The notes: generated from the sequence alone by a model not told the origin. DNA of 64,000 bases from a bacterium (GCA_023269085.1 JAHFML010000001.1:108578-172577), one strand, 5' to 3'. Shown: positions 20,599 to 38,390, counted from the first letter of the stretch. Made by a program: numbers and translations.

Positions 20599-21096
20599 TT
20601 ACCACCCCGATGCTCCGGGCGTATACACCGACCATTCGATATTTGTTCCGTTGGCAACACCCGAGCGTTGCGGATCAATAAGTGAAGAAACGCTATTTGA
20701 ATTCCCCACGCAGTTGTGAAAGAGAAGCTTGTAGTTCGTGCTGTCAGAAGTGTATATATAGCAACAGAAATTATTGGCGTCATCTTCTTTAGAATCTATC
20801 GGCATCGTGCCGAGATAGGTCGGCACCAAACCAGGAATGGTAGGACTAGGCCATCCCGGACAATGGCTCTGCCAACTATTCGAGCCGCCCGTCGATGGAT
20901 ACGCACCATTATTGCTCGACGCATACAAATCGAGAGCTTGTTGAATACTCCGCAGGTTTGAGGCGCGCTGGACGTCGAGAGATTTCCCTCGTGCCACATT
21001 GAGTGAAGCGAGTACGACCGACGAGAGCAAGCCGATGATGGCGATAACAACAAGAAGCTCGACGAGGGTGAAGCCAGAGTGGGGACGCAAGCGCAT
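20599..21096 (-). CDS. type IV pilin/pseudopilin (prepilin-type N-terminal cleavage/methylation domain)
   Basis: Leader MRLRPHSG|FTLVELLVVIAIIGLLSSVVL is the class III signal. The C-terminal region is Cys-containing. Local GC is visibly lower than the flanks. Confidence 0.75.
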   Translation of the reverse strand: MRLRPHSGFTLVELLVVIAIIGLLSSVVLASLNVARGKSLDVQRASNLRSIQQALDLYASSNNGAYPSTGGSNSWQSHCPGWPSPTIPGLVPTYLGTMPIDSKEDDANNFCCYIYTSDSTNYKLLFHNCVGNSNSVSSLIDPQRSGVANGTNIEWSVYTPGASGW

Positions 21097-21115
21097 ACGG
21101 AAAATATACCACGCG

Positions 21116-21283
21116 CTACTTACGCGCGGGCGGATTAGCATTGATAAACGCCCTCTGTTCCTGTGTGAGATGTGAAGATGGCGTAATGAGCACTGGGATG
21201 ACGAATGCGAGTACTACGGCAACTGCCGCGATACCGACAAGTACGATATTCACTCCCCGTTCGGTCGATGCGGCACCCGTCAT
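21116..21283 (-). CDS. hypothetical small membrane protein
   Basis: A single TM segment (IVLVGIAAVAVVLAFVIPVLI) downstream of the pilin. The short ORF has weak support. Confidence 0.25.
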   Translation of the reverse strand: MTGAASTERGVNIVLVGIAAVAVVLAFVIPVLITPSSHLTQEQRAFINANPPARK

Positions 21284-23652: not shown

Positions 23653-23898
23653 CTAATTTGATAAGACTGCCACGGAACGGTACAAGTCAAGCTGGCCTTT
23701 TTCAAGATGAAGAAGGCGGTCGTTCACCTCTATAAGATCGCCGTCTATATCGCTCAGTCTCGCGTGCACCTTCTTAAATTCCGCATGCACCTCACCGAAC
23801 TGTTCCTGCATATCCTGTCGCATCTCTCCGAACCCTTCTGCCATCAGGCGTGCGAGCATCTCGGTGTCAGTCTCTTTTTTAGCAGAAGCTTCTTTCAT
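23653..23898 (-). CDS. hypothetical small coiled-coil protein
   Basis: Short acidic/helical ORF directly downstream of the giant gene on the same strand. Confidence 0.3.
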   Translation of the reverse strand: MKEASAKKETDTEMLARLMAEGFGEMRQDMQEQFGEVHAEFKKVHARLSDIDGDLIEVNDRLLHLEKGQLDLYRSVAVLSN

Positions 23899-23966
23899 AC
23901 GGATATCATACTGCCCTCGCGGTCGGTGGGCAATCTTCTGGGCGTTCACAACGCACCCTCATAGCG

Positions 23967-26900
23967 TTATGTCGCCGGCGTGGCCGTCGCATCGACGGGA
24001 GTTGGCGCTACGGGAGAGGACGGCGGCGCGATGACCGTCACTACGCGCGATGCCGAGCCGACATTCCCCGCCGCGTCCGTCGCCGAGTAGGTCAGCGTGG
24101 TGAGGCCGATGGCCGCGGTATCGACCGCGCCAGTCTCGACGATCTTCGCGGTGAGATTGCCGTCAACATTATCGAGCGCCGTCGCGCCAGGGTCGGTGAA
24201 GGTATCACCTTGCGTCAGCTGTATCGCCGCCGCGCCGTTCAAGATGACGACCGGCGATGTCGTGTCGCCCTGCGGTGAGCCGGTCGAACCCGTCGAGGCC
24301 GGCGTCGATGATGCGGTGCCACTCGTCGCTGATACGCCGCTCGCTCCGCTCGCGGCGCCCCCTTGCGGCGTGCTCGACGCGACTGGCGCTATAACCACGG
24401 GCGCGGGCGCGCTCGCCGAGGTGCCGAGCGTGTTCGGCGTCGAGGTCGCCAATTGCCCCTCTGTCTGCACCAAGAAGTAATCGAAGGAGACATCAATCGT
24501 CTGCGGTGCCGAGAGCACGACGCGGAAGGATCCTGCCGTCTTATCAGCGACCCACCAGCTCCCGCTAATTTGTGAATTGAAGGTGACGAAGACTTTGGTC
24601 GACGGGAGAACGAGCGAGTTCTGCACCTGAGCGACGGTGTTGCCGGTGATGATGCTCACGCTCCCGGCGCTACTCGTACCGTCGGCGTCCTTCGAGGCGA
24701 CGATCTGACGGAAGACGAGCGTGTTGAACTGCGCGATGCCCTTCTCTATCAAGACGCCGAAGCCCTGCAAAGCACTCGCGAGCGAGGTCGTCCCGAGGGC
24801 GAGCGGCGACGCGCTCGCGACACTGACCGCTCCGCTCTCGAGCTTCGCGACGCGCGCCTCAAGCGAGGTGAGTCGCGTCCCTTGGGCATCAATTTTCCCT
24901 GCGAGCAACGAGACATTCGCCACCGCATAGGTCGCGAGCTTGTAGAGATCAACTTGCCGACCGTCGGCGGTCAAGACGGCGAGCGGTGTCGAGGTCGCGC
25001 CAGCAGGCACGTCGAGCTTCGCGTCGAGCTGTTGGATAGCCTTGGTCAACACCGACGTGAAGTTCGCATAGACGAAGCCGTTCGGATTCCCCTGCTCATC
25101 GCGCGTCACGAGCCTTGAATCCACGAGCGCCGCCTGCTCGGCGATGAAGCCAAGCTGAGTCGTCGCGCCATTGTCGCCATAGCCCTTGATGAAGGTGAAG
25201 GAGACCGGCTTCAAGGCGAGCACCTCATCGAGACCAGAGACCGAGGAGAGCGGCACGATGTTGGTCTTGAACTTCTCCGACGAGAGCGTACAGGTCGTCC
25301 CCGCCTCAATCTCATGCGTCACCGTGTTCCAGCAGAGGTAGTCGCCGGTGGTCGAGACCGTCGGCGAATCGATCGCCATGCTCCCTGCGACCGAGAGCTT
25401 ACGCCACGGGCTGGTGGTGCCGATGCCGATATTCCCCGTACTCACCGTCGCACCTGTCCCGCTCAACCCTGTCCCATATATCATGTTCCCGATATTGAGT
25501 TGGTTGCTTGCGGTCGCGCTCGGCACAGCGACGTCATTGCCGATGCTGATGTTGTTCGAGCCGGTCGTTACCTGATTCTGCGAGGCGGCGATAACGCTGT
25601 TGCCGAGGAAGGTGTTGCGGGCACCTGAGGTGATGCTGTAGCCCGATAGGTAGCCAACAAGGGTGTTGTAGTTGGAGTTGGTCTGGGCGGAGTAGCCCGC
25701 TTGGTAGCCGAGGTAGGTGCCGCCTTGGTTGGAGTAGGCGGCGGTGCCGCCGCCGGCGTTATAACCGACAGCGACCGAGGAGGAGGCGGAAGTATTGTAG
25801 CGAAGAGCAAATGAGCCGACAGCCGTGTTGAATGAGCCGGTGATGTTGGTGTTGAGCACCGAACGGCCGAGAGCTGTGTTGGAGTTGCCTGTTGTCAACA
25901 CCGGCAAAGTGAAAGCACCAAGTACTGTGTTGCTGTTGCCGGTTCTGTTAACATTCAAAGCATTCACGCCAACCGCTGTGTTTGTTGATGCTGTTCCGTT
26001 CGTCGGTGTCGTACCGAGCGCCCCCTGCCCGATTGCAATGTCGTAGAAGAGCGTCGAGGTTGCGCGCATCCAACCGGCGGCGCCGGTAGTGCCGAGGGCG
26101 AGTGAGAAGTTCGTCGTCGAAGCGTAGAGGACAGTATTCCCTGCTTGTTTGAAGCCTGAGTATTGGTCGGTGTTCACATAGCCGGCGACGTCGAGCTTGT
26201 AGGCAGGGGCGGTGAGGCCGATGCCGATATTCCCCGTACTCACCGTCGCACCTGTCCCGCTCAACCCTGTCCCATATATCATGTTCCCGATATTGAGTTG
26301 GTTGCTTGCGGTCGCGCTCGGAACAGCGACGTCATTGCCGATGCTGATGTTGTTCGAGCCGGTCGTTACCTGATTCTGCGAGGCGGCGATAGTGCTGTTG
26401 CCGAGGAAGGTGTTGCGGGCACCTGAGGTGATGCTAAAGCCCGATTGGTAGCCAACAAGGGTGTTGTAGTTGCTGCCGGTGGCAAGAACATAGCCGGATT
26501 GGAAGCCGACATAGGTGCCGCCCGTGTTGGAGTAGGCGGCGGTGCCTTGACCTGCCTGATGACCGATGGCGACTGAGGAGGTGGCGGAAGTATTGTAGCG
26601 AAGAGCAAAGTAACCGAATGCGGAGTTGTTGTTGCCAGTAATGTTCGAGTAGAGAGCGTTGTTACCATACGCAGAGTTACTGTTCCCTGTCGTGTTAAAG
26701 CGGAGTGTGTTGAATCCAAAAGCGCTATTCGTATTTCCAGTCGTATTGAGTGCGAGTGCTCCATATCCGAAAGCGTTATTTATCTTCCCGCTCGTGTTTG
26801 CACCCAAAGCACTGAACCCCACAGCGACATTGAACTGAGAGAGACCATTCGTCGGCACTGTCTGCAAAGCCCCCTGTCCAATCGCCACGTCGTAGAAGAG

Positions 26901-29900
26901 GGTTGAGGTCGCCCGCATCCAGTTAGCGGCAGAGGAGGCGCCAATGGCAAGAGATGAGTTCGTCGTCGATGCATACAAGACCGTGTTGCCTGCTTGCTTG
27001 AAGCCACTGTATTGGTCGGTGTTCACGTAGCCCGCGACGTCGAGCTTCTGGGTTGGCGAAGTTCCCACTCCCACATTCCCATTCGCCAAGATGTTGAGTG
27101 ACCCGATGGTGGAGGAAGCAGAGGCGATGATGCCGTTGGTGAAGCCGATGGTAGTGGAGGTGGAGACGCCCCACGCAGTCGGAGTGAAGGGCCAGGCGAA
27201 GGAGTCTTTGGTATTGAACGTATTCCAGTCCGTACTCGAGAGCCAGCCGTTCGTGCTGGTGTTCGCTTGGGTCATGGCGACGGTGTTGGCAGAGATGGTG
27301 AGCGGGAGGGTGGCAGAGACGATACGCGAGGTGTAGGCGGTGTTGAAGTGCGACCAATCTGCTTGGGCGAGGTAGCCGTCGGTGGTGCCGTTTGATTGGG
27401 CGATGGTGAGCGGTGAGCCGCTAGTGCCGTTGCCGGTCAAGGGTGCGGAGACGGCGACCGCAGTGAGAGCATTGGCGGCGACGCAGACACCGTTGATCGC
27501 ATAGCAACCCTTCTTCAAGTTGATGCCGTAGCCGAAGGTGGAAGTGGCGACATTTGAGATGTTGATGGTGTTAGCACCCGTGTTGCCGAGGGAGAGGAGT
27601 GAGCCCGGGGTGGTGGTGCCGATGCCGAGAAGACCAGTTGAAACGAGCGACATAAGTTCTGAATATCCGCCAGCGTTATAGTCATACCCCCAGAGCATTC
27701 TGGCGGTACCAGGGTTCCCTGATACCGGGAGCACTTCATTCTTGAAGTTTACCGTGCGCGAGGCCGCCGCGCCGGTATCCCACACCGTGCCGCTCAGGCG
27801 GAGACGAGGCGACATTTGTACCGTAGCTCCGGCTGTTGCCGCGGTGGTATTCGTCAGGATGATTCCATCTGTCGAGACTGCCGCAAGTGCTGTCCGTGTA
27901 TTGGTAAGTGTATTAGTCATCGCAAGACTAGAAATACTAGAAAGTGCCCCTCCGGATGTCAAAGTGAAGCGAGTAGTATATGCACCCCCGTTCACTCCAG
28001 AAGCAAAAATGAGATTGGATGTTGGATTTGCAGATCCTTGTACCGGAAGTGCATACATCTGCCAGTCGGTCCTTTGGCTCGCAACTGGGGTTGTCGCCCA
28101 TCCTTGTCCAGTGAATCGAAGAGAAGGGCTTATCTGTTGCGCTCCTGCTGAAGCCGCCGTCATGTTTTCAATAGCAAGACCAGAAGAGTTCGTTTGTATA
28201 ACTCCTAGAGCATTGGCGGCGACGGTAAGAAGCGAAGATGGCATCGGCGTTCCAACACCGACATAGCCATTCTTGTCGACCACAAAGCTCGTCTTGGTCG
28301 AAGAGCCGATGGCGAAAGAAAGCCGGCCGGCGGGTGCGTTCACCGAGAGCGTCGCCCAGGGGGTGGTGGTGCCGATGCCAAGGCGATCGTCTGCGGTCAA
28401 GACTGAGGAGAGCGCGCCTGAGGTGTTGTAGATGTCGATGATATGCGCCGTCTGGCTCGCCGAAGGGACGAGCGCGAGCGTCGTGGTCGCGACCGAGCCC
28501 GAGATCACCGCGAACTTCGCATAGAGCGTCGAGGTCGCGCCGACCGCGACGAGATAGGTCGAGGTAGCGAGCGAGACAGTGTGCTTGGTCGCATCGCTTG
28601 CCCAGCCACCGCCGACCGATGCGCCCGAGGTGTTGATCAGGCCGCAGGAGACATTCCCCGAGCCGTCGGTCTGGAGCGCCTGCGTGCCGGTACAAGAGGT
28701 GATGCTAGAGAGCGCGAGCGAGTTGGTGAATCGCGCCGTGCCTGCGACGTCGAGCTTATAGGCTGGCGCGGCCGTGCCGATACCGACATTGCCGGCGATA
28801 TACGAGATGTCCGCGCCTGAGGTCGCCCACGGCGATGAGACTTTGCTGTTGAAGATATTCCAATCGGTCGATGAGAGATATCCGTTCGCCGTGCTCGAGG
28901 CCTGCGCGAGCGAGAGCACATTGCCGGCGAAGGAGAGCGGGGCCGTCGCTAAGGTGATGCGTGAGGCATAGGCGGTGTCCCAGTTCGCACTATTGGCGTT
29001 CCAACCGGCGTAAGCAGAATTCCAATTGGTAGAATTGGCGGCGACGGTATCGTAGGAGCCATTCCAGTTCGTCGTTGAGGCGATGAGCGGAATTATGTAG
29101 CCGCTCGCGATCGAGAAGGCGCCCGTGCCTGAGTTGTAGGAGAGCGGGCCAGAGGTAGAGAGCGCCGCGCGCGCACGAGCGTCGGTGTAGTAGAGGTTCG
29201 CGCCTTCCGCGAGATTGGTCGTCGACTTGTTCGTGAGCCAATAATTGGTCGAGGTTGTCGAGAAGAAGAAGTCCTTGTTGAAGAGGCCGAGTGTAGTCGT
29301 CGAGAGGCGACTATTAAAATCGTTCCAATCGATACTGGAGAGGAAGCCGTTCGACGAGTTCCCTGCCTGCGCGATCGAGAAGGCGCCCGCGCCTGAGTTG
29401 TAGGCGAGCGGGCCAGAGGTAGAGAGCGCCGCGCGCGCACGAGCGTCGGTGTAGTAGAGGTTCGTGTTCCCCTCCTTAAGCCCATCGGTCGTCGTGGCAT
29501 ACCAATTCGCGAGAGAGAGCTTCGCGTTGAGCGCACTCTGGAGATCGGTCTGATTCGCGAGGACCCCGGTGATGTTCCCCCAGACGGCGCTCGTGATGCC
29601 GAGCGACGAGGTGGCGACCGCAACGAGTTTGCCGTTCGCGTTCGTGCCGAGAAGCGGCGCATTCGCGAGGCCAGAAAGCCACGTCGACCCCGAGACGGTG
29701 AGCGCCGTTGTTGATGCATAGGGGAAGACAGAAGCGAGCGACGAAGTGGCAACGAAGTGTCCGGAGGTTATCTGGCCGGCATTGCTAAATGAAGAGAGAT
29801 AGCTGGCGATGTCGGTCGAGCCGATGAAGAGATTGTCGAACTTGCCGGTTGTCGCCGAGACGAGACCGCCGCCGGTGAGGCTCCCCCCGCGGAAGTCGCC

Positions 29901-31637
29901 GTTCCGCACGATGAGATTTGAGAGGTCTTGAATCATGTTGACCTGCTGTATCGTCGTCATATTGGTCACCGTCTGCGCCGCGACTGGCTGCATCATGCCC
30001 GCAACCGTCGCGAGCACGTCGGTGCGGAGCGAGGCGAGCGACTGCGTCAAGAGATCCGGCGACACGCCCTTTACGATCGTCGTGTAGGTCGGATACGAAT
30101 TGACTACTCGCGCTGATACCGGCGCAGGTGCTAGAGCGAGAATAGTTGGCCGTGGGGTTATGATCGGCGCCGCGGTTTTCGATGTTGTCGTCGCAGAATA
30201 TATCGGGCGATCCGGCGCTATGACCAAGACCGTCGGTGAATGCACAAAAAACGTTGCAAGTGCTCCGCGTGTCGAATCAAAGAAATCGCGAATCGTCGTA
30301 TAGGTGCCGAGTGCGGCGCGCTCGCCAAGCGTGAGCGCCGGCACTGAGGTAATTACCGCCGCAAGACGCGATGCCGAGGGGAACGATTCGAGAACAAGCG
30401 CGGTCTTGCCGAGCAGGCCGAGAGCGGCGTCCTGCACGACAGAGGGGGAACGCGCTATGAGCACCGGTACCGCAACAGCCGCGCGACCGACTGCCGCAGA
30501 AGTCGCGTATGCCGCTCTGCCCGTTTGATCGACCGACGCGAGATACCCCCGCGTTATGGCATCGGTCGCTCTGACGAAATGCATCGCGCCAGAATATTCA
30601 ACATCGAAAACCGCCTCCGCGAGAGAGGGGGCTCCCCTGACGCCGCTCGACACCGTATCCGCGAGAGCATACATGACGCGGACATCGGTTCGTATCGCAG
30701 ATTGAGAAAGCGCGGCGATTGCGCGCGCGACGCCACGACCAGACGCAAATGCGAGATGCGGTACCTGCGCGAGCGCGTCTCGCGTGTCTGCGCCGATTGC
30801 GAGCGCCGTGCCGCCCATAGCATCAATCACCGATTGCCGCGTCGGCAGTGAGCTCGTCATTGCAGCGGCGATCTCTGACGGCGTGGTGACAAACGCGATT
30901 GTGCGAATGAGGCTCGCTCGTATTGCCGCAAACGAGATCGTCGATCGTGCCACAGGCGTCGCCGCGAATGTCTTATGGACCTCTGGTGACTCGGCGCTAT
31001 ATTCTCGAACGAGCGAGGTCTGCATCGACGCGAGCACATTTCCTGCCGAGAGCGCTCGGTACGCCGATGCCTCCGGAGAGGCTGCCATGACGCGAGACGA
31101 GATCTCGCGCATCGCACCGCGTGACGTATCGACGCGCGTCGCGATGCGCGAAGGCACGTCGCCGAAGGTCTCGGTGAAGCCGAGTGCTGTCTCTTGCGCC
31201 AGCGCCGCAACTTGATTGGTAAAACTGGACAACGCCTCTGCGCGCGCGCCGAGAGCGCCCAACGCGACGACGAGCAGAGCTGTGACAAGAGAGACCGTGC
31301 GCGTACCACGCACCGGCGTCCCGATGGCCAAGCGATATGGCGACACCACCATCTGCATCGTCAAGATTGACTCATCGCGCGGCTCTGTATTCTTCTGCAG
31401 CTTACGATATTCATTCGCACGAACATCAGCGAGCTCGCGTGCACGAAGAACCTTCCGATTTTTTTGTTTTTGTAAAAAGGATTCGAGCGCTACCCGATCT
31501 ACCATCCACTGATGCCCGATCTTTTTCCCTTCTATCTCTCCTGCTCGCACGAGTCGCGCGAGATAGTCTTGTGTGTATCCCGACAGCTCTCCAGCCTCTT
31601 TCGTTGTTATGAATTTTTCGTTAGGTGAGGAGTGCAT
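23967..31637 (-). CDS. giant (2,556-aa) membrane-anchored surface protein. N-terminal excisionase-type HTH, single TM, tandem repeats, tail-fibre-like Gly/Asn β-helix repeats, peptidase-S74-like intramolecular chaperone motif, C-terminal Ig-like domain
   Basis: One uninterrupted 7.7-kb ORF. N-term ITTKEAGELSGYTQDYLARLVRAGEIEGKKIGHQWMVDRVALESFL (HTH_17-like) and TM TVSLVTALLVVALGALGA. Repeats of NAFGYGALALNTTGNTNSAFG type. SSEKFKTNIVPLSS…LKPVSFTF (S74-like). C-terminal ~90 aa Ig-like (VVILNGAAAIQLTQGDTFTDPGATALD). Confidence 0.85.
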   Translation of the reverse strand: MHSSPNEKFITTKEAGELSGYTQDYLARLVRAGEIEGKKIGHQWMVDRVALESFLQKQKNRKVLRARELADVRANEYRKLQKNTEPRDESILTMQMVVSPYRLAIGTPVRGTRTVSLVTALLVVALGALGARAEALSSFTNQVAALAQETALGFTETFGDVPSRIATRVDTSRGAMREISSRVMAASPEASAYRALSAGNVLASMQTSLVREYSAESPEVHKTFAATPVARSTISFAAIRASLIRTIAFVTTPSEIAAAMTSSLPTRQSVIDAMGGTALAIGADTRDALAQVPHLAFASGRGVARAIAALSQSAIRTDVRVMYALADTVSSGVRGAPSLAEAVFDVEYSGAMHFVRATDAITRGYLASVDQTGRAAYATSAAVGRAAVAVPVLIARSPSVVQDAALGLLGKTALVLESFPSASRLAAVITSVPALTLGERAALGTYTTIRDFFDSTRGALATFFVHSPTVLVIAPDRPIYSATTTSKTAAPIITPRPTILALAPAPVSARVVNSYPTYTTIVKGVSPDLLTQSLASLRTDVLATVAGMMQPVAAQTVTNMTTIQQVNMIQDLSNLIVRNGDFRGGSLTGGGLVSATTGKFDNLFIGSTDIASYLSSFSNAGQITSGHFVATSSLASVFPYASTTALTVSGSTWLSGLANAPLLGTNANGKLVAVATSSLGITSAVWGNITGVLANQTDLQSALNAKLSLANWYATTTDGLKEGNTNLYYTDARARAALSTSGPLAYNSGAGAFSIAQAGNSSNGFLSSIDWNDFNSRLSTTTLGLFNKDFFFSTTSTNYWLTNKSTTNLAEGANLYYTDARARAALSTSGPLSYNSGTGAFSIASGYIIPLIASTTNWNGSYDTVAANSTNWNSAYAGWNANSANWDTAYASRITLATAPLSFAGNVLSLAQASSTANGYLSSTDWNIFNSKVSSPWATSGADISYIAGNVGIGTAAPAYKLDVAGTARFTNSLALSSITSCTGTQALQTDGSGNVSCGLINTSGASVGGGWASDATKHTVSLATSTYLVAVGATSTLYAKFAVISGSVATTTLALVPSASQTAHIIDIYNTSGALSSVLTADDRLGIGTTTPWATLSVNAPAGRLSFAIGSSTKTSFVVDKNGYVGVGTPMPSSLLTVAANALGVIQTNSSGLAIENMTAASAGAQQISPSLRFTGQGWATTPVASQRTDWQMYALPVQGSANPTSNLIFASGVNGGAYTTRFTLTSGGALSSISSLAMTNTLTNTRTALAAVSTDGIILTNTTAATAGATVQMSPRLRLSGTVWDTGAAASRTVNFKNEVLPVSGNPGTARMLWGYDYNAGGYSELMSLVSTGLLGIGTTTPGSLLSLGNTGANTINISNVATSTFGYGINLKKGCYAINGVCVAANALTAVAVSAPLTGNGTSGSPLTIAQSNGTTDGYLAQADWSHFNTAYTSRIVSATLPLTISANTVAMTQANTSTNGWLSSTDWNTFNTKDSFAWPFTPTAWGVSTSTTIGFTNGIIASASSTIGSLNILANGNVGVGTSPTQKLDVAGYVNTDQYSGFKQAGNTVLYASTTNSSLAIGASSAANWMRATSTLFYDVAIGQGALQTVPTNGLSQFNVAVGFSALGANTSGKINNAFGYGALALNTTGNTNSAFGFNTLRFNTTGNSNSAYGNNALYSNITGNNNSAFGYFALRYNTSATSSVAIGHQAGQGTAAYSNTGGTYVGFQSGYVLATGSNYNTLVGYQSGFSITSGARNTFLGNSTIAASQNQVTTGSNNISIGNDVAVPSATASNQLNIGNMIYGTGLSGTGATVSTGNIGIGLTAPAYKLDVAGYVNTDQYSGFKQAGNTVLYASTTNFSLALGTTGAAGWMRATSTLFYDIAIGQGALGTTPTNGTASTNTAVGVNALNVNRTGNSNTVLGAFTLPVLTTGNSNTALGRSVLNTNITGSFNTAVGSFALRYNTSASSSVAVGYNAGGGTAAYSNQGGTYLGYQAGYSAQTNSNYNTLVGYLSGYSITSGARNTFLGNSVIAASQNQVTTGSNNISIGNDVAVPSATASNQLNIGNMIYGTGLSGTGATVSTGNIGIGTTSPWRKLSVAGSMAIDSPTVSTTGDYLCWNTVTHEIEAGTTCTLSSEKFKTNIVPLSSVSGLDEVLALKPVSFTFIKGYGDNGATTQLGFIAEQAALVDSRLVTRDEQGNPNGFVYANFTSVLTKAIQQLDAKLDVPAGATSTPLAVLTADGRQVDLYKLATYAVANVSLLAGKIDAQGTRLTSLEARVAKLESGAVSVASASPLALGTTSLASALQGFGVLIEKGIAQFNTLVFRQIVASKDADGTSSAGSVSIITGNTVAQVQNSLVLPSTKVFVTFNSQISGSWWVADKTAGSFRVVLSAPQTIDVSFDYFLVQTEGQLATSTPNTLGTSASAPAPVVIAPVASSTPQGGAASGASGVSATSGTASSTPASTGSTGSPQGDTTSPVVILNGAAAIQLTQGDTFTDPGATALDNVDGNLTAKIVETGAVDTAAIGLTTLTYSATDAAGNVGSASRVVTVIAPPSSPVAPTPVDATATPAT
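25420..25672. repeat. intragenic tandem repeat copy A (~255 bp, near-identical to 26218-26470)
   Basis: Direct inspection: strings such as ctcaccgtcgcacctgtcccgctcaaccctgtcccatatatcatgttcccgatattgagttggttgcttgcggtcgcgctcgg occur in both copies. Period is about 798 bp (266 aa). Confidence 0.8.
26218..26470. repeat. intragenic tandem repeat copy B
   Basis: See copy A. Confidence 0.8.
29107..29470. repeat. two tandem ~264-bp (88-aa) repeats within the giant gene (NLYYTDARARAALSTSGPL[AS]YNSG[AT]GAFSIA)
   Basis: gcgatcgagaaggcgcccg…gagcgggccagaggtagagagcgccgcgcgcgcacgagcgtcggtgtagtagaggttcg occurs at about 29107 and about 29371. Confidence 0.7.
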
Positions 31638-32178
31638 GCGGATATCCGAATTAACTAAATGATATCTGATTATTCCGGCATCACCTAGCGCGAAGATGTG
31701 GATAATTCTTGAATAAAAAAGTATCCGCTTGAAGCCGGTAGTATGGCTGCTGTTTTTATAAAAAATTTCTTGAGATTTTCTTTATGGAGACTTGTCCTCA
31801 CGCATCCAACCTCTGCAATCTCGGCATATTCAGCTCATTATGTGTTCGTGACACACGAATATTCTCAAACATCAGTGCGTCTCGACGCAAAATCCCAGCA
31901 ATGTTGACCAACAAAATATCAGAAATGTTTTACTCGCTCAACTCTTTCTTGTTATCAGGAATAAACATATCTTATATGGTCATTCCTGCATGTTCTTGAA
32001 CTGATTTTCATTTACATACATTTATATATGCGTATCTGGCTTGCTACGCGATGCGTTGCCCGATATTTTTTACAGGTTATGACACCTGCTAACTCTCTTT
32101 ATTACAGGCTCTGCAACTGTATAGTCGAGTCAGAGTGGCTCATCTCGCGTATCCGAGACGAGATACATAGAAAATACG

Positions 32179-32976
32179 CTACTTATTGTAGATTGTGATT
32201 CCAAAAAAGTTGCTTACTCGACTGCTCGAGAACAAGTAGTTGTCCATATAGCCGCTGTTAGCAACCGCCAAAACTACAGAGACCATCGCCAGTAGTACGA
32301 AAAGTGTCTTGGTGGCGAGCATGATATGCGTTTGATATGGGCGCTCGTACTGCGGCATCGGCAAATCGGCCTTCTCTTGCTGCGGCAAGCGAGGCGCTGT
32401 TGGTACCGGATCCGCTGAAGGCAAGATCGCCGCGGCGCGCACGGGATTTAGAATGTGGATTGGTATGCTCACCAAAGCACCGGTTTCTGGTTCTGGTTCA
32501 GCAACCGTGTCTGCCGGTGTTGCGGCCTGACTGAACAGATTTTCCCACGAGTCTTGCAGACCGTTGCTCGGCTTCTCTGATACCTGTGGTGTCTTCGCCG
32601 TTTCCTTTATAGGCTCTGTTTCTTTTGTGGTCGTGACTGGTTCTGCAACCGACAGACTGGGCGTTCGCAGGCGATTAAGCGGTGGTAGCGCACTCACCTC
32701 GTCTTCTTCTACCGCTTCATATCGCGGAGCTGATTCATACGCGGCATTTTGAGTGTCCTGCTTAAAACCAATGTTCTCTGTACTGTTATTGACCTCCTCT
32801 CCGAACCTATGATCCTGAATAGCCGACTCGAGAACATACCACGCCCGACCAACGAGTCGTGCCGGGACCCTACCTTCGCGACAAAGCTGCCCTATATAAT
32901 CCTTCGCGTAGCCGGTAATCTTTGCGGCTTGTTTCGACGATATATATTTTTTTTCTTCTATGAGAATCTCATCCAT
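32179..32976 (-). CDS. membrane-anchored protein with an N-terminal excisionase-type HTH (paralogous N-terminus to the giant protein)
   Basis: ISSKQAAKITGYAKDYIGQLCREGRVPARLVGRAWYVLESAI (HTH), an acidic/Pro-rich linker and a C-proximal TM TLFVLLAMVSVVLAVA. Confidence 0.6.
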   Translation of the reverse strand: MDEILIEEKKYISSKQAAKITGYAKDYIGQLCREGRVPARLVGRAWYVLESAIQDHRFGEEVNNSTENIGFKQDTQNAAYESAPRYEAVEEDEVSALPPLNRLRTPSLSVAEPVTTTKETEPIKETAKTPQVSEKPSNGLQDSWENLFSQAATPADTVAEPEPETGALVSIPIHILNPVRAAAILPSADPVPTAPRLPQQEKADLPMPQYERPYQTHIMLATKTLFVLLAMVSVVLAVANSGYMDNYLFSSSRVSNFFGITIYNK

Positions 32977-33035: not shown

Positions 33036-34451
33036 TTAGCCAAGAGTAGCGATGATGAGTTCGCGGAGTAGGGTCGGATTGCCGGCACCTCGCGTAGCTT
33101 GCATGCTCTTGCCGACGAGGTATTGCAAAGCCGCGTCCTTCCCCGATCGGTACTCGATAACCGCCTTGACCTCTTCTTTAAGCACGCTCTCGACCGCAGT
33201 GCGCAAGAGCGTCGCGTCATGCACCTGGATCAACCCGTGCTCCGTGGCGATATTCTCGGGATCTCCCCCCTTCTCGACGAGCAGAGCGAGCGTGTCCTTA
33301 GCCCCGCGCGATGAGAGTTCGCCTGTGTCAATGAGCTTGATGAGCTTCGCAAAAGCCTTCGGGTCAAGAGCCGCATATTCTTCGCACCCCTGTTTGGCAT
33401 ATATACCTGCAAGATCCGATACGATATAGTTCACGGCGATTGAGACAAGACGGCGATCCATACCAAGTTCTTCCGTAAGAGCATCAAAGAATGTCGCGCG
33501 CTCGAGCGTGTCCACTACATAGGCGATATCACTCTCTTTCAAAGCAAAAGCTTCTGTGTACCGCGTTCGACGCTCCCAGGGGAGCTCGGGAAGTGATGCG
33601 CGTATCACCGCATCACTGAAATCAGCAATCTCCGACCGATACATCTTCGGGAGATCTGGTTCAGGGAAGTAGCGATAGTCGGCGCTCCCCTCCTTAAAGC
33701 GTTGGTGAAAGGTTATCTGCTTCGATTCATCCCATCCGCGCGTCTCCTGCACGACCGCCCCGCCGCTCTCAATAAGCGCTGACTGCCTTTCGATCTCGTG
33801 TGCGATAGCGCGCTCGACCGAACGAAACGAGTTCAGGTTTTTGACTTCGACTTTCGTGCCGAGCTTCCCTTCTTCCTTCGAAACCGAGATGTTCGCTTCG
33901 ATGCGCATTTCTCCCTTCTCGAGATTTGCTTCTCCTGCACGAAGGGTACGGAGAAGGAGCTGCAATTCTCGTGCGAATCTCCCTGCCGTCGCCGCATCGT
34001 GAATCACGGGTTCAGTGACCAGCTCCATGAGCGGCACGCCGGAACGATTGAAGTCGACACAACTCCCTTCTTTCGCGTGTGTCGAGCGCGCCGTGTCTTC
34101 TTCGAGATGCACGCGGGTGACCGCAACACCCGCGAGCTCTCCACCCTCTACGAAGGGATGTTCGTATTGACTGATCTGATACCCTTTAGGGATATCAGGA
34201 TAGAAATAGCTCTTGCGATCGAATTCACTGAAATCCGCGAGCTCCCCGCCGAGGGCCGTACCAACCCGCAGGATATGCCGCACTGCTTCTCGATTGATCA
34301 CAGGCAATGTCCCCGGGTGTGCGAGACATACGGGGCAGACATGCGTATTCGGTTTTACTTCGTCAGCGTCATTCGCACAGCGACAGAACATCTTAGTCGC
34401 TGTTTTGAGCTCGGCGTGTATCTCAAGTCCTATGGTCGGGCGGTACTCCAT
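33036..34451 (-). CDS. gatB: Asp-tRNA(Asn)/Glu-tRNA(Gln) amidotransferase subunit B
   Basis: MEYRPTIGLEIHAEL…CRCAND…CPVCL (GatB N-terminal Zn motif) and the C-terminal YqeY-like tail. Confidence 0.9.
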   Translation of the reverse strand: MEYRPTIGLEIHAELKTATKMFCRCANDADEVKPNTHVCPVCLAHPGTLPVINREAVRHILRVGTALGGELADFSEFDRKSYFYPDIPKGYQISQYEHPFVEGGELAGVAVTRVHLEEDTARSTHAKEGSCVDFNRSGVPLMELVTEPVIHDAATAGRFARELQLLLRTLRAGEANLEKGEMRIEANISVSKEEGKLGTKVEVKNLNSFRSVERAIAHEIERQSALIESGGAVVQETRGWDESKQITFHQRFKEGSADYRYFPEPDLPKMYRSEIADFSDAVIRASLPELPWERRTRYTEAFALKESDIAYVVDTLERATFFDALTEELGMDRRLVSIAVNYIVSDLAGIYAKQGCEEYAALDPKAFAKLIKLIDTGELSSRGAKDTLALLVEKGGDPENIATEHGLIQVHDATLLRTAVESVLKEEVKAVIEYRSGKDAALQYLVGKSMQATRGAGNPTLLRELIIATLG

Positions 34452-38100: not shown

Positions 38101-38205
38101 ACTATGCGCGCTTCTTAGCGGCGGTGCGCTTCTTAGCAGCCTTCTTGACTGCCTTCTTCGCGACCTTCTTGACGGTCTTCTTCACTGCTCGTTTCTTTGT
38201 TGCCA
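38101..38205 (-). CDS. unannotated 34-aa lysine-rich basic peptide (MATKKRAVKKTVKKVAKKAVKKAAKKRTAAKKRA)
   Basis: Manual translation; ATG at 38203-38205 (minus), TAG at 38101-38103. AKK/VKK periodicity resembles histone H1/Hc1-like tails. Below the ORF-track size cutoff. Confidence 0.4.
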
Positions 38206-38299
38206 TGGTGGTTGTGAATTAGAAATGATTACTGATAGGTCGACCCGTCTGCGCGTAAATAGTTTTATGCACAAACGTTCCTACACAACATTATCGCGC

Positions 38300-38390
38300 G
38301 TAAAAAATATTTGTGTGCACGAAAAAATATTTTGTGTGGATAACTCACGCGAAAATATTTTTATAAAAAATATTTTCGCGTGAGTTATTT
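38300..38390. promoter_or_regulatory. AT-rich region with two direct AAAAAATATTT(T)GTGTG repeats and a 22-bp-arm inverted repeat (38340-38361 / 38367-38388) around AAAATATTTT
   Basis: Seen in sequence: ataactcacgcgaaaatatttt-tataa-aaaatattttcgcgtgagttat. Position suits a terminator for the 38555..40726 gene and/or an operator for the small basic ORF and secA. Confidence 0.5.

What the first reader, a model, noticed from the sequence alone, without database searches (positions are those of the whole stretch)
23967..31637. Giant surface gene with a ToxR-like layout: cytoplasmic HTH, one TM helix, then a tail-fibre-like fibre with an S74-type autoproteolysis motif
The N-terminal 50 aa (ITTKEAGELSGYTQDYLARLVRAGEIEGKKIGHQWMVDRVALESFL) carry the RxxE…W…DLxxFL pattern of excisionase/HTH_17 DNA-binding domains. 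About 110 aa later comes a single TM helix (TVSLVTALLVVALGALGA). About 2,400 presumably extracellular residues follow.

The extracellular part has Ala/Ser/Thr-rich segments and tandem duplications. It has dozens of Gly/Asn-rich repeats (NAFGYGALALNTTGNTNSAFGFNTLRFNTTGNSNSAYG) of the kind seen in phage tail fibres and tailspikes.

The segment …TTCTLSSEKFKTNIVPLSSVSGLDEVLALKPVSFTF… (DNA ~25,000-25,290) matches the consensus S-[DE]-x-[RK]-x-K-x-N-I…L.P…F of the peptidase S74 intramolecular chaperone domain, which trimerises phage tail fibres and self-cleaves. The last ~90 aa are Ig-like (DUF5011-like).

A DNA-binding-type domain inside the cell, joined to a virus-like adhesive fibre outside, is not a described protein family. 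In a putative episymbiont this protein is the obvious candidate for host-cell attachment, and the HTH hints at signalling or nucleoid tethering.
Basis: partly seen in the sequence, partly recalled or inferred. Interest (0 to 1): 0.85.

Follow-up and report, generated by a model that had tools for sequence, protein, structure and literature searches.

The report
Membrane-anchored tail-fibre-like giant with cytoplasmic HTH
A 2,556-residue protein of an ultra-small (Patescibacteria/Kaiserbacteria-type) bacterium joins a DNA-binding-type domain inside the cell, through one membrane helix, to a long phage-tail-fibre-like filament outside; it belongs to a conserved but unstudied family and is a strong candidate for how these cells hold on to a host.

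Summary
Window 23967-31637 (-) is one intact 2,556-aa ORF. Pfam matches above cutoff: HTH_17 (aa 10-58, marginal), Peptidase_S74 (aa 2119-2172, Ser2119/Lys2124 dyad kept) and a surface Ig-like domain (aa 2466-2535). There is a single TM helix (aa 113-131), with positive-inside bias.

AlphaFold gives a confident excisionase/MerR-type winged helix. Its nearest solved folds are DNA binders (TraN, Xis, RacA, BldC).

It is not an assembly artefact or a prophage gene. The order SecA-Obg-GatB-small HTH/TM gene-giant gene recurs in about 70 Paceibacteria/Kaiserbacteria species genomes. About 190 protein clusters (up to 7,214 aa; 1-3 tandem HTHs) share the N-terminal HTH/basic-helix/TM module.

Both ends are conserved and the shaft is hypervariable. 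A ~70-nt leader containing TTATCCACA is conserved upstream.

Best reading: a type-II-anchored, probably trimeric surface fibre folded by its S74 chaperone, with a DNA-binding-type cytoplasmic foot. Adhesion and DNA binding are inferred. ToxR and MYRF are layout analogies only.

Seven full-text searches found no description. I rate it a new variant of known kinds, of moderately high interest.

The parts
23967..31637 (-). Giant ORF, 2,556 aa (coordinates include the stop codon)
   Evidence: The identical protein P0001 is held by NCBI and ENA.
31464..31610 (-). HTH_17 / excisionase-type winged helix, aa 10-58 (strand, two helices, two-strand wing)
   Evidence: Pfam 27.9 bits against a cutoff of 27. 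PHROG excisionase families match. AlphaFold pLDDT >95. Foldseek matches TraN, Pukovnik Xis, RacA-DNA, BldC, Tn916 Xis and RdfS, with TM-score (target-normalised) 0.6-0.77 and rmsd 1.8-3.8 A. This region is 51-67% identical to the orthologues.
31389..31463 (-). Conserved basic helix continuing from the HTH, aa 59-83 (QKNRKVLRARELADVRANEYRKLQK; 9 K/R against 3 D/E)
   Evidence: AlphaFold predicts one helix over aa 48-83. The family consensus is RK..RAR.LA..R..EYR. The charge count was read directly from the sequence.
31245..31301 (-). Single transmembrane helix, aa 113-131, ending in the conserved G127-xxx-A131-x-A133 motif
   Evidence: Hydropathy scan, positive-inside statistics and column frequencies across 69 family members.
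29958..31244 (-). Extracellular juxtamembrane motif (A..TA.GF..TFGD.P..IA.R) followed by an Ala-rich, charged, predicted-helical stalk, aa 132-560
   Evidence: Alignments. AlphaFold helices at aa 134-158 and 161-186. Composition profile. This region is 31-42% identical to the orthologues.
25284..29957 (-). Low-charge Ser/Thr/Gly/Asn/Ala-rich fibre shaft, aa 561-2118. It contains the repeated motifs LYYTDARARAAL and NG.LSS.DWN.FN, two ~290-aa duplicated modules, and 17-residue Gly/Asn repeats.
   Evidence: PHROG tail spike and virion structural protein matches. Motif map and composition. Repeat HMM. Only 9-25% identical to the orthologues, with 14-35% gaps.
25408..27052 (-). Segmental tandem duplication inside the shaft (25408-26203 and 26206-27052; a 267-nt core at 96% identity, the rest at 77-78%)
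   Evidence: Tandem Repeats Finder found no short-period array.
24828..25283 (-). Peptidase_S74 intramolecular chaperone domain with its helical extension, aa 2119-2270. Motif S2119-S-E-K-F-K2124-T-N-I.
   Evidence: Pfam 32.9 bits against a cutoff of 22. Ser and Lys are invariant in the family alignment. A profile matches 8jov tail fibre (3.9e-16), 6f45 S16 long tail fibre, 7dc3 MYRF and 3gud GA-1 neck appendage. Viral Foldseek hits to S74 / intramolecular-chaperone proteins.
24468..24674 (-). Conserved small beta-sandwich, aa 2322-2390 (tailspike / pyocin-fibre C-terminal or H-type-lectin-like)
   Evidence: AlphaFold pLDDT about 90. Weak Foldseek hits to 6cl6, 7eea, 4urr, 2ccv and 4q56, and to viral H-type lectin proteins. 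71-79% identical to P0002 and P0003. The module occurs only in this family.
24276..24455 (-). Disordered Ala/Ser/Thr/Gly/Pro linker, aa 2395-2454
   Evidence: pLDDT <40; sequence.
24033..24242 (-). Bacterial surface Ig-like domain (PF16403, formerly DUF5011), aa 2466-2535
   Evidence: Pfam 66.5 bits. PDB sequence match 2kpn. Foldseek matches 5fq3, 5fq7, 2kpn and 4hmc.
31638..31705 (-). Nucleotide-conserved leader directly upstream of the ATG: TTATCCACA (31697-31705), then ...CCGGAATAATCAGATATCATTTAGTTAATTCGGATATCCGC-ATG
   Evidence: Conserved in about 48 of 53 related genomes. TTATCCACA is about 30-fold enriched on the sense strand in the related loci. No RNA structure or covariation.
31638..32178 (.). 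Long AT-rich spacer between the small HTH gene and the giant gene (541 bp, GC 0.39)
   Evidence: Median 605 bp and GC 0.26-0.50 in 53 related genomes.
32179..32976 (-). Upstream paralogue, 265 aa: HTH_17, a long disordered linker, a TM helix near the C-terminus and a short outside tail
   Evidence: Pfam 26.7 bits, just below the cutoff of 27. Sequence. phmmer match to the giant's HTH, 2e-08. Syntenic in about 70 genomes. The family has more than 1,000 database hits. Conserved C-terminal tail.
23653..23949 (-). Small charged, helical ORF (98 aa) immediately downstream. Its membership in the system is uncertain.
   Evidence: No Pfam or NCBIfam match. A 46%-identical ORF sits at the same position in L001.

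Best explanation
The gene encodes a bitopic (N-in, C-out) membrane protein that builds a long, probably trimeric, phage-tail-fibre-like filament on the surface of a Paceibacteria/Kaiserbacteria-type cell.

Shown here:
- The domain order is excisionase/MerR-type winged HTH, basic helix, one TM helix, Ala-rich helical stalk, roughly 1,500-aa low-charge beta-rich shaft, S74 intramolecular chaperone domain with its Ser/Lys dyad, coiled coil, small beta-sandwich, linker, Ig-like domain.
- It is a vertically inherited core gene at a fixed chromosomal position.
- The HTH/TM foot and the post-S74 C-terminal domains are conserved, while the shaft is hypervariable.

Inferred:
1. The TM acts as a signal-anchor. 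The chain is exported N-to-C through Sec. The S74 domain emerges last, trimerises without ATP, and zips up the fibre from its C-terminal end, as it does in endosialidase and tail fibres. It may then cut at Ser2119.
2. The fibre mediates attachment to a host cell or surface glycan.
3. Three HTH-plus-basic-helix feet per fibre sit under the membrane and bind DNA. They either tether nucleoid DNA, or the gene's own conserved leader, to the fibre base, or act as a membrane-bound regulator.

I favour DNA binding over a pure protein-anchor role at roughly 2:1.
For: - Domains and residues.
- HTH fold: the nearest solved structures are all DNA-bound or DNA-binding excisionase/MerR-type proteins, including the chromosome anchor RacA and the tandem-domain dsDNA binder TraN.
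- Family-invariant basic and aromatic positions lie in the recognition helix and wing: K13, Y21, D24, Y25, R28, R31, the G-K-[KR]-x-G-[HR]-x-W wing, and W44.
- Among the top 155 module-bearing representatives, 45 carry 2-3 tandem HTH copies, which fits avidity for DNA.
- Topology: positive-inside bias across 68 members, and a net +6 N-terminal segment.
- Exterior: tail-spike PHROGs; S74 profile hits to solved tail fibres; 91 viral-structure matches, many of them S74, intramolecular-chaperone or tail-fibre proteins; surface Ig-like domain.
- Not mobile and not an artefact: housekeeping neighbours; the order SecA-Obg-GatB-small HTH-giant recurs in about 70 species genomes; 192 representatives match the whole N-terminal module at E<=1e-30.
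- The same HTH/TM foot carries different exteriors in relatives (LVIVD repeats, EPTP, inteins), so it behaves as a generic anchor module.
- Limnobacter proteins share the fibre and S74 domain but use a different N-terminus, so fibre and foot are separable modules.
Against: - There are no expression, proteomic, binding or imaging data.
- The HTH_17 score is marginal (27.9 against 27), and TIGR01764 is below its cutoff.
- The HTH core (aa 9-58) is net neutral: 7 K/R against 7 D/E, counted. The positive charge sits in the following helix.
- MerR-like folds can bind proteins. CbpM (3ucs) is among the fold hits.
- A conserved A131-x-A133 at the outer end of the TM could be a signal-peptidase site. 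Cleavage there would separate fibre from foot.
- The S74 motif departs from the consensus at +1 (Ser for Asp) and +3 (Lys for Arg).
- About 290 further residues follow the chaperone region (aa 2119-2270), unlike classical phage fibres.
- The distal domains are conserved while the shaft varies. This is the opposite of the usual receptor-binding arms-race pattern, so the ligand may be generic, or the distal part may be only a folding and cap module.
- The trimer state was not modelled.
Confidence: 0.6

Rival explanations
1. Cleavable leader model. The HTH/TM segment is an unusually long, folded pro-region. Signal peptidase I cuts after the conserved A-x-A (about aa 133). The fibre is then released or held on the wall or S-layer by its conserved juxtamembrane segment. 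A roughly 130-aa HTH-TM stub remains and could be released further by intramembrane proteolysis, as with anti-sigma factors.
For: A131 is present in 58 of 69 family members, and residue 133 is A, S or T in 62 of 69, directly at the outer end of a 17-19-residue hydrophobic core. The upstream paralogue has the architecture such a stub would have: HTH, linker, TM, short tail.
Against: An n-region of 112 residues containing a folded domain is far outside canonical signal peptides (own knowledge). G127-xxx-A131 is equally well a helix-packing motif for a TM bundle. The paralogue itself has no A-x-A conservation. The extracellular juxtamembrane motif is conserved, as expected if the segment stays next to the membrane.
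Confidence: 0.2
2. Protein-anchor model. The winged helix does not bind DNA. It docks the fibre base to a cytoplasmic protein such as a cytoskeletal, divisome or pilus component, as the HTH of RodZ binds MreB or MerR-like CbpM binds CbpA.
For: The HTH core is net neutral (counted). CbpM-CbpA (3ucs) is among the fold matches. The same foot is used for many different exteriors, as expected of a generic anchoring or sorting module.
Against: The best fold matches are DNA complexes (TraN, RacA, BldC, Xis). The recognition-helix and wing positions are the most conserved. The foot is followed by a +6 basic helix. Tandem HTH arrays are common.
Confidence: 0.2
3. Contact-sensing one-component regulator (true ToxR/CadC-type function). 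Mechanical or ligand engagement of the fibre changes the oligomeric state of the membrane-bound HTH. This switches transcription, possibly of its own gene, through the conserved leader (TTATCCACA ... TATCCGAC).
For: The layout fits. There is a strongly conserved ~70-nt leader and a long AT-rich spacer upstream of the gene. TTATCCACA marks exactly two transcription units in the 64-kb window, and the matching two positions recur across the related loci.
Against: Nothing links the HTH to that motif. TTATCCACA is the textbook DnaA box (own knowledge), so DnaA is an equally good candidate binder. The paralogue has almost no extracellular part to sense with. A 2,400-aa fibre is a costly sensor.
Confidence: 0.15
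4. A phage or prophage tail-fibre gene, or a tailocin component, that merely lies in the chromosome.
For: PHROG tail-spike and virion-protein matches, the S74 domain, and many viral structural matches.
Against: No other phage genes flank it. The neighbours are GAPDH, RpiB, Rpe, GatB, Obg and SecA. The position is fixed in about 70 species. An N-terminal TM anchor is not a feature of virion fibres.
Confidence: 0.03
5. Assembly artefact or pseudogene: a collapsed or chimeric repeat that creates a false giant ORF.
For: Internal repeats of up to 267 nt at 96% identity. Many homologous genes sit at contig ends.
Against: The ORF is an uninterrupted 7.67 kb. The identical protein occurs on two contigs from NCBI and ENA. 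Orthologues of 2,379-2,732 aa are collinear from HTH to Ig-like domain.
Confidence: 0.02

Closest known systems
Phage tail fibres and tailspikes with a C-terminal intramolecular chaperone domain (endosialidase K1F, T5 L-shaped fibre pb1, GA-1 neck appendage gp12, S16 long tail fibre; Pfam PF13884)
   Same: The S74 domain has the Ser...Lys dyad and follows a long low-charge fibre. Profile matches to 8jov, 6f45, 3gud and 8hqz. Tail-spike PHROG matches in the shaft. A tailspike-like C-terminal beta-sandwich.
   Different: It is a cellular, chromosomally fixed gene with an N-terminal HTH and TM anchor instead of a virion-attachment domain. It must fold outside the cell. About 290 residues follow the chaperone region (beta-sandwich, linker, Ig-like). 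The +1 and +3 motif residues differ from the consensus.
Bacterial 'tail fiber domain-containing proteins' (for example the Limnobacter proteins P0008-P0021)
   Same: These are 2,200-2,700-aa cellular proteins that share the shaft and the S74 domain at 24-34% identity.
   Different: Their N-terminus is different and has no HTH. They lack the conserved post-S74 beta-sandwich and Ig module.
ToxR / TcpP / CadC membrane-bound one-component regulators
   Same: A bitopic protein with an N-terminal cytoplasmic winged-helix DNA-binding-type domain, one TM helix and a C-terminal extracytoplasmic part.
   Different: The HTH is excisionase/MerR-type, not OmpR/PhoB-type; there is no Trans_reg_C hit. The exterior is a 2,400-aa fibre rather than a small sensor domain. 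No regulatory target is known.
MYRF (myelin regulatory factor), a eukaryotic membrane-bound transcription factor with an S74/ICA domain
   Same: As far as I know (own knowledge), this is the only described protein type that combines a DNA-binding domain, a TM helix and an S74 domain. The S74 profile built here matches MYRF 7dc3 at 1.5e-09.
   Different: In MYRF the order is DBD-ICA-TM, and the ICA sits on the DBD side, so self-cleavage frees the transcription factor. Here the order is HTH-TM-fibre-S74, so cleavage would free the distal C-terminal piece, not the HTH. The DBD type also differs (Ndt80 against HTH_17).
RodZ (Xre-type HTH, TM, periplasmic domain) and RacA (MerR-like winged helix that anchors the chromosome to the pole)
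   Same: RodZ has the same HTH-linker-TM-outside layout, with the HTH serving as a cytoplasmic dock. RacA has the same wHTH fold (5i44 is among the top fold hits) and uses it to tether DNA to a membrane site.
   Different: RodZ's HTH belongs to another class and binds MreB. RacA has no TM and reaches the membrane through DivIVA. Neither carries a surface fibre.
Trimeric surface fibres of other bacteria (YadA-type autotransporter adhesins)
   Same: Short Gly/Asn-rich repeats of the N-[ST]-A-x-G type, and a probable trimeric fibre used for adhesion.
   Different: No Hep_Hag or YadA-anchor Pfam match. Anchoring is by an N-terminal inner-membrane helix, not a C-terminal outer-membrane barrel.

Membership tests
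HTH_17 / excisionase-type (MerR-like) winged helix, PF12728 | Score at or above the Pfam gathering threshold | tested here: met
   27.9 bits against a cutoff of 27, at aa 10-58. This is marginal. NCBIfam TIGR01764 'excise' scores 21.6, below its 28.8 cutoff.
HTH_17 / excisionase-type (MerR-like) winged helix, PF12728 | Strand, helix, turn, helix, two-strand wing fold | tested here: met
   AlphaFold elements E9-11, H12-19, H23-32, E37-40, E43-47, with pLDDT >95. Foldseek matches Xis, BldC, TraN, RacA and RdfS with TM-score (target-normalised) 0.6-0.77.
HTH_17 / excisionase-type (MerR-like) winged helix, PF12728 | Binds DNA | not testable with these tools
   Indirect only: conserved recognition-helix and wing residues and the adjoining +6 basic helix.
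Peptidase S74 / intramolecular chaperone auto-processing domain, PF13884 | Score at or above the Pfam gathering threshold | tested here: met
   32.9 bits against a cutoff of 22, at aa 2119-2172. A family profile matches solved S74 domains at 3.9e-16 to 3.9e-06.
Peptidase S74 / intramolecular chaperone auto-processing domain, PF13884 | Catalytic Ser and Lys five residues apart (S-D-x-R-x-K) | tested here: met
   S2119 and K2124 are invariant in the alignment of 8 homologues and align to the SDERLK, SDRRIK and SDERHK motifs of 8jov, 6f45 and 3gud.
Peptidase S74 / intramolecular chaperone auto-processing domain, PF13884 | Consensus Asp at +1 and Arg at +3 | tested here: not met
   The window protein has S-S-E-K-F-K (Ser at +1, Lys at +3). 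Orthologue P0004 has S-L-G-A-L-K. As far as I know these are not the catalytic residues.
Peptidase S74 / intramolecular chaperone auto-processing domain, PF13884 | Trimerisation and self-cleavage at the Ser | not testable with these tools
   Only a monomer model could be run. This needs AlphaFold-multimer or proteomics.
ToxR-like membrane-bound transcription regulators | N-in bitopic topology with a cytoplasmic DNA-binding-type domain | tested here: met
   One TM helix. Positive-inside bias in 68 members. No dedicated topology predictor was available.
ToxR-like membrane-bound transcription regulators | OmpR/PhoB-type winged helix (Trans_reg_C) | tested here: not met
   No such Pfam hit even at E<=1. 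The domain is HTH_17.
ToxR-like membrane-bound transcription regulators | Compact periplasmic sensor domain | tested here: not met
   The exterior is a 2,425-aa fibre with S74 and Ig-like domains.
MYRF-type self-cleaving membrane transcription factors | The S74/ICA domain lies between the DNA-binding domain and the TM, on the same side of the membrane | tested here: not met
   The order here is HTH (aa 10-58), TM (aa 113-131), S74 (aa 2119-2172).
Bacterial surface Ig-like domain, PF16403 (formerly DUF5011) | Score at or above the Pfam gathering threshold, and an Ig-like fold | tested here: met
   66.5 bits against a cutoff of 27. pLDDT about 93, and Foldseek matches 5fq7 (TM-score 0.80, rmsd 1.3 A) and 2kpn.
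Trimeric autotransporter adhesins (YadA family) | Hep_Hag / YadA head repeats and a C-terminal membrane-anchor barrel | tested here: not met
   No Pfam match. The C-terminus is an Ig-like domain.
Paceibacteria 'HTH / basic helix / TM' anchored surface-protein family (defined here) | N-terminal HTH at about aa 10-58, an RK..RAR.LA..R..EYR helix, a TM at about aa 100-135 with G...A.A, a juxtamembrane GF..TFGD.P..IA.R motif, and a position downstream of gatB and the small HTH/TM gene | tested here: met
   All of these features are present in the window protein.

The most novel reading that the evidence does not exclude
The HTH / basic-helix / TM foot is a Patescibacteria-specific device that couples cell-surface fibres physically to DNA. 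In this reading, host contact at the fibre is relayed directly to the chromosome. One route is release of the HTH stub by signal-peptidase and intramembrane cleavage at the conserved A-x-A. The other is the nascent or mature foot binding the conserved leader of its own gene (TTATCCACA ... TATCCGAC-ATG). Such binding would keep this 7.7-kb gene, its mRNA and the translocon together at the membrane (cis 'transertion'). This would be a new signal-transduction or biogenesis principle in bacteria that have very few conventional regulators.
Probability: 0.2. Interest if true: 0.85.

Novelty: new variant of a known kind. Interest (0 to 1): 0.62.

Why it matters
Patescibacteria (CPR) make up a large share of bacterial diversity and are thought to live attached to other cells. 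For the Paceibacteria/Kaiserbacteria branch no attachment structure is known, and there are almost no cultures.

This locus offers a concrete, conserved, syntenic candidate: a filament built from phage-fibre parts and rooted in the membrane by a DNA-binding-type domain. It comes with a paired small HTH/TM gene and a conserved leader motif.

The locus makes several questions directly testable:
- Does the foot bind DNA, and which DNA?
- Does the S74 domain fold and cut an exported fibre?
- Is the fibre severed from its foot?

It also shows that the ATP-independent phage chaperone module has been recruited for extracellular assembly by a cell.

The fused 'cytoplasmic excisionase-type HTH plus extracellular fibre' architecture was not found in the literature searched. 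It recurs in about 190 protein clusters of up to 7,214 aa.

Tried and rejected
1. A single-sequence phmmer of the C-terminal 486 aa against PDB sequences found only the Ig-like domain. The S74 relatives appeared only with a family profile.
2. phmmer of aa 1-187 against the PDB gave only spurious helical matches. The fold search was needed.
3. NCBIfam has no curated family for the giant, for the small paralogue or for the 98-aa downstream ORF.
4. An exact look-up of the window protein's encoding contig returned nothing, although the identical P0001 is in the protein collection. No source names are attached.
5. I tested the conserved leader as an RNA element and rejected it. The RNAalifold consensus is -0.8 kcal/mol with 3 pairs and no covariation, and there is no Rfam family in the window apart from rRNA and tRNA.
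6. The leader and AT-rich spacer as oriC is unlikely. Cumulative GC skew keeps falling on both sides of the locus, and the positive skew at 24-30 kb coincides with the giant gene itself. I did not test this further.
7. The sigma-70 promoter and terminator scan gave nothing above shuffled expectation.
8. Tandem Repeats Finder found no short-period arrays, so the repeats are segmental duplications.
9. Prophage origin is rejected on gene context.
10. Seven full-text literature searches found no description of this architecture, nor did one paper look-up. This is weak negative evidence, because subscription journals are not covered.
11. An A-x-A motif in the small paralogue is not conserved across its family.

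Full report
**1. What is there**

Window 23967-31637 on the minus strand is a single ATG-initiated ORF of 2,556 codons.

Pfam gives three matches above the curated cutoffs:
- HTH_17, aa 10-58: 27.9 bits against 27, which is marginal.
- Peptidase_S74, aa 2119-2172: 32.9 bits against 22.
- Bact_surface_Ig-like, formerly DUF5011, aa 2466-2535: 66.5 bits against 27.

PHROGs adds excisionase families at the N-terminus. It also gives 'tail spike protein' and 'virion structural protein' matches at aa 1600-1784. NCBIfam has no curated family; there is only a sub-threshold excisionase domain match.

A hydropathy scan finds one convincing TM segment, aa 113-131. The one correction is that the 17-residue Gly/Asn repeats number about a dozen (7 clear, about 6 degenerate), not dozens.

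**2. It is a real gene**

- The identical protein is on record from NCBI and ENA on a 307-kb contig.
- Internal repeats are segmental duplications: an ~800-850-bp unit with a 267-nt core at 96% identity, and a 95-nt pair at 98%. There is no short-period array.
- Orthologues of 2,379-2,732 aa are collinear from HTH to Ig-like domain and carry the same three Pfam domains.
- The neighbours are housekeeping genes: Rpe, RpiB and GAPDH downstream; GatB, Obg and SecA upstream; GyrB, RF, L25, transketolase, aldolase and Mur ligases elsewhere. It is not a prophage.

**3. Family and distribution**

I aligned the N-terminal 170-190 residues of the relatives. The alignment shows a conserved module:
- the HTH;
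- a basic helix (RK..RAR.LA..R..EYR);
- a variable linker;
- a TM helix ending in G...A.A;
- an extracellular juxtamembrane motif (A..TA.GF..TFGD.P..IA.R).

An exhaustive profile search of 1.84 billion representatives found 192 proteins at E<=1e-30 that match the whole module. Their lengths reach 7,214 aa. Of the 155 top representatives, 110 carry one HTH, 43 carry two and 2 carry three in tandem. In 144 of the 155 a TM follows within 300 residues.

A scan of one genome per species returned 75 loci, essentially all titled Paceibacteria, Kaiserbacteria, Parcubacteria or Patescibacteria. Some are labelled 'Saccharibacteria' in automated third-party assemblies. In these loci the HTH motif sits at about residue 20 and the TM at about residue 100-135. 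The ORF is usually over 1,000 aa, and many run off the locus beyond 3,400 aa. A few complete ones are short, at 398-891 aa.

tblastn of the window's neighbours shows the order SecA-Obg-GatB-small HTH gene-giant gene in about 70 of these genomes. SecA, Obg and GatB are 50-79% identical, mostly 60-78%. The small HTH protein is mostly 33-44% identical over its full length, and the giant's N-terminus 31-50%.

Relatives carry other exteriors on the same foot, such as LVIVD repeats, EPTP and inteins. Limnobacter proteins share the fibre and S74 domain but not the foot. Foot and fibre are therefore separable modules.

**4. The cytoplasmic foot**

AlphaFold2 was run on aa 1-187 with 37 aligned sequences. 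It gives pLDDT >95 for aa 10-80, with a strand (9-11), helices (12-19 and 23-32), a two-strand wing (37-40 and 43-47) and one long helix (48-83). The linker is disordered, and the TM and two further helices follow.

The Foldseek hits in the PDB are led by:
- the dsDNA-binding T4SS protein TraN;
- Pukovnik Xis;
- the RacA-DNA complex;
- BldC-DNA complexes;
- Tn916 Xis;
- RdfS.

Target-normalised TM-scores are 0.6-0.77 and rmsd is 1.8-3.8 A over about 50 residues. E-values are weak because the domain is small.

The most conserved positions are K13, A15, G20, Y21, D24, Y25, R28, L29, R31, G33, G41 and W44. These lie in helix 1, the recognition helix and the wing.

The HTH core is net neutral and the following helix is +6 (counted). 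The whole N-terminal segment has 20 K/R against 14 D/E.

Topology: across 68 members there are twice as many K/R in the 15 residues before the TM as after it. The N-terminal segment averages a net +6.7, and there is no N-terminal hydrophobic signal. A 112-residue folded, charged N-tail is very unlikely to be translocated (own knowledge). N-in/C-out is therefore the supported topology, although no dedicated predictor was available.

**5. The exterior**

- aa 132-560 is Ala-rich, charged and, where modelled, helical.
- aa 561-2118 is a low-charge Ser/Thr/Gly/Asn/Ala-rich region with repeated motifs and two ~290-aa duplicated modules.
- The S74 motif reads S2119-S-E-K-F-K2124-T-N-I.

In an alignment of eight homologues the Ser and the Lys five residues later are invariant. 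The +1 Asp and +3 Arg of the consensus are replaced here by Ser and Lys, and in P0004 by Leu and Ala.

A profile of this region matches solved S74 domains:
- 8jov tail fibre (3.9e-16);
- 6f45, the S16 long tail fibre (2e-10);
- 7dc3, MYRF (1.5e-09);
- 3gud, the GA-1 neck appendage chaperone (2.8e-06), whose chain begins at the conserved Ser;
- 8hqz, annotated 'L-shaped tail fiber assembly' (3.9e-06).

AlphaFold2 of aa 2085-2556 (mean pLDDT 68) resolves several elements:
- the S74 core;
- a long helix (aa 2231-2267) and a second helix (aa 2283-2313);
- a beta-sandwich (aa 2322-2390, pLDDT about 90);
- a disordered linker (aa 2395-2454);
- the Ig-like domain (aa 2463-2536, pLDDT about 93).

Foldseek places the Ig-like domain with BT2262, Big_3 and chitinase Ig domains. 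It places the sandwich, weakly, with R2-pyocin fibre and tailspike C-terminal sandwiches and with H-type lectins. In the viral library 91 matches reach E<=1e-3, and many of them are S74, intramolecular-chaperone or tail-fibre proteins.

The post-S74 module occurs only in this family.

Identity to orthologues P0002 and P0003, by region:

| Region | Identity |
|---|---|
| HTH | 65-67% |
| Shaft | 9-25%, with 21-35% gaps |
| S74 | 25-27% |
| Coiled coil | 64-67% |
| Beta-sandwich | 71-79% |
| Ig-like | 73-74% |

Both ends are conserved and the middle is hypervariable.

**6. Surroundings**

The gene directly upstream (32179-32976, 265 aa) is a paralogue. It has an HTH_17 (26.7 bits, just under the cutoff), an acidic/Pro-rich linker, and a TM at about aa 224. 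A ~29-residue outside tail is conserved across its family. The N-terminal-module profile A1, which includes this paralogue, returned over 1,300 hits at E<=1e-6. The best 120 are all paralogue-like proteins of 148-328 aa.

The spacer between the two genes is unusually long and AT-rich: 541 bp here, with a median of 605 bp and GC 0.26-0.50 in 53 genomes.

The last ~70 nt before the ATG are conserved at nucleotide level in about 48 of 53 genomes: TTATCCACA-N~22-CCGAAATAGTAAGTTATTATTTAGTTAATTCGG.TATCCGAC-ATG. There is no RNA-structure signal.

TTATCCACA is the textbook DnaA-box nonamer (own knowledge). Its distribution is as follows:
- In 1.06 Mb of related loci it occurs 103 times on the sense strand and twice on the antisense strand. 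About 3.4 per strand are expected.
- It occurs upstream of the giant gene and, in a second conserved context, 125-130 nt upstream of a tiny Lys-rich ORF that precedes secA (window 38102-38206).
- The Lys-rich ORF is conserved in 43 of 47 loci.
- The window holds exactly these two copies.

What binds the motif is unknown.

**7. Mechanism**

Shown: the architecture, the topology bias, the catalytic residues, the fixed chromosomal position and the conservation pattern.

Inferred from established knowledge of S74 chaperone domains: they nucleate trimerisation of fibres from the C-terminal end and then self-cleave. Three chains anchored by their TM helices would be exported N-to-C. The S74 domain emerges last, trimerises without ATP, and drives folding of the shaft back toward the membrane. 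Cleavage at Ser2119 would then release, or leave non-covalently bound, a 438-residue piece carrying the sandwich and Ig-like domains.

The product would be a filament, plausibly 100 nm or longer, rooted in the membrane. I take it to be an attachment organelle for a host cell or glycan.

Each fibre would place three winged helices plus basic helices under the membrane. I favour DNA binding for these, either nucleoid or own-leader tethering or membrane-bound regulation. The reasons are the fold neighbours, the conserved recognition positions, the basic helix and the tandem arrays.

Open points:
- The conserved A131-x-A133 could be a signal-peptidase site that severs the fibre from the foot, or a packing motif.
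- The conserved distal domains argue for a generic ligand or a folding and cap role.

**8. Comparison and verdict**

The protein works like a phage tail fibre grafted onto a ToxR- or RodZ-like membrane foot. It is a member of the HTH_17, S74 and PF16403 domain families. It is not a member of the ToxR family: the HTH class is wrong and there is no sensor domain. It is not MYRF-like either, because the S74 domain is on the other side of the membrane and distal to the TM.

No paper describing the architecture was found. Database records call these proteins 'hypothetical' or 'tail fiber domain-containing'.

I rate it a new variant of known kinds.

Noticed in passing
window 31638-31705 (-); related loci about 60-70 nt upstream of each giant gene: A ~70-nt leader is conserved at nucleotide level and starts with the perfect DnaA-box nonamer TTATCCACA. 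It ends in TTAATTCGG.TATCCGAC directly before the ATG. In the window this last part contains the palindrome CGGATATCCG. No RNA structure or covariation was found.
   Followed up: yes
window 38102-38206 (-) and 38335-38344 (-): A tiny Lys-rich ORF (MATKKRAVKKTVKKVAKKAVKKAAKKRTAAKKRA) lies upstream of secA. It sits 125-130 nt downstream of the second GTTATCCACA copy in the window. Both the ORF and the motif spacing are conserved in 43 of 47 related loci. It may be a histone-H1-like nucleoid protein that is co-regulated with the giant gene.
   Followed up: partly
window 32179-32976 (-): A small paralogue with an HTH_17, a long disordered linker, a TM near the C-terminus, and a conserved ~29-aa outside tail (GsGy.D.y...G...Y.[KR]). 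It is always between gatB and the giant gene. It belongs to a large Paceibacteria family with over 1,000 database hits and no known function.
   Followed up: partly
window 31239-31259 (-), aa 127-133 of the giant: A G127-xxx-A131-x-A133 motif is conserved at the outer end of the TM helix: A131 in 58 of 69 family members, and A, S or T at 133 in 62 of 69. It could be a signal-peptidase A-x-A site or a GxxxA helix-packing motif.
   Followed up: partly
L002 16456-24199 (same contig as L051): One relative has a second giant gene (over 3,100 aa, with S74 and Ig-like domains and the same N-terminal module) directly downstream of the first. It has its own TTATCCACA at 16380.
   Followed up: no
homologues P0004 and P0010 (sequence): Some family members carry intein (Hint, PF14890) and NYN (PF01936) domains. 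In P0010 the intein-like CVTGDTRL segment lies just downstream of the S74 domain. P0004 and P0006 have a second, degenerate S74-like unit (STRAAKTDI) in tandem.
   Followed up: no
window 23653-23949 (-): A 98-aa charged, helical ORF lies immediately downstream of the giant gene and has no family match. A 46%-identical ORF occupies the same position in L001.
   Followed up: no
window 20599-21141 (-): A 180-aa protein carries a type IV pilin N-terminal methylation motif (PF07963). It lies about 3 kb downstream of the giant gene and is another candidate surface appendage.
   Followed up: no
window 56862-58637 (-): A 591-aa protein gives weak matches to type IV secretion coupling proteins (TrwB/VirD4, TraG-D_C). 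It sits in an otherwise housekeeping and glycosyltransferase region.
   Followed up: no
window 34067-34158 (-): ARAGORN calls a 92-nt 'tRNA-Arg(gcg)' inside the gatB coding region (33036-34451). Rfam does not confirm it, so it is probably a false positive.
   Followed up: no
window 53558-55717 (-): A 719-aa fusion of an NAD-dependent epimerase/dehydratase with a GT4 glycosyltransferase. It lies within a cluster of glycosyltransferases, a Wzy-like O-antigen ligase/TPR protein (38555-40726) and a polysaccharide flippase-like gene (40770-42050), which points to surface-glycan synthesis.
   Followed up: no
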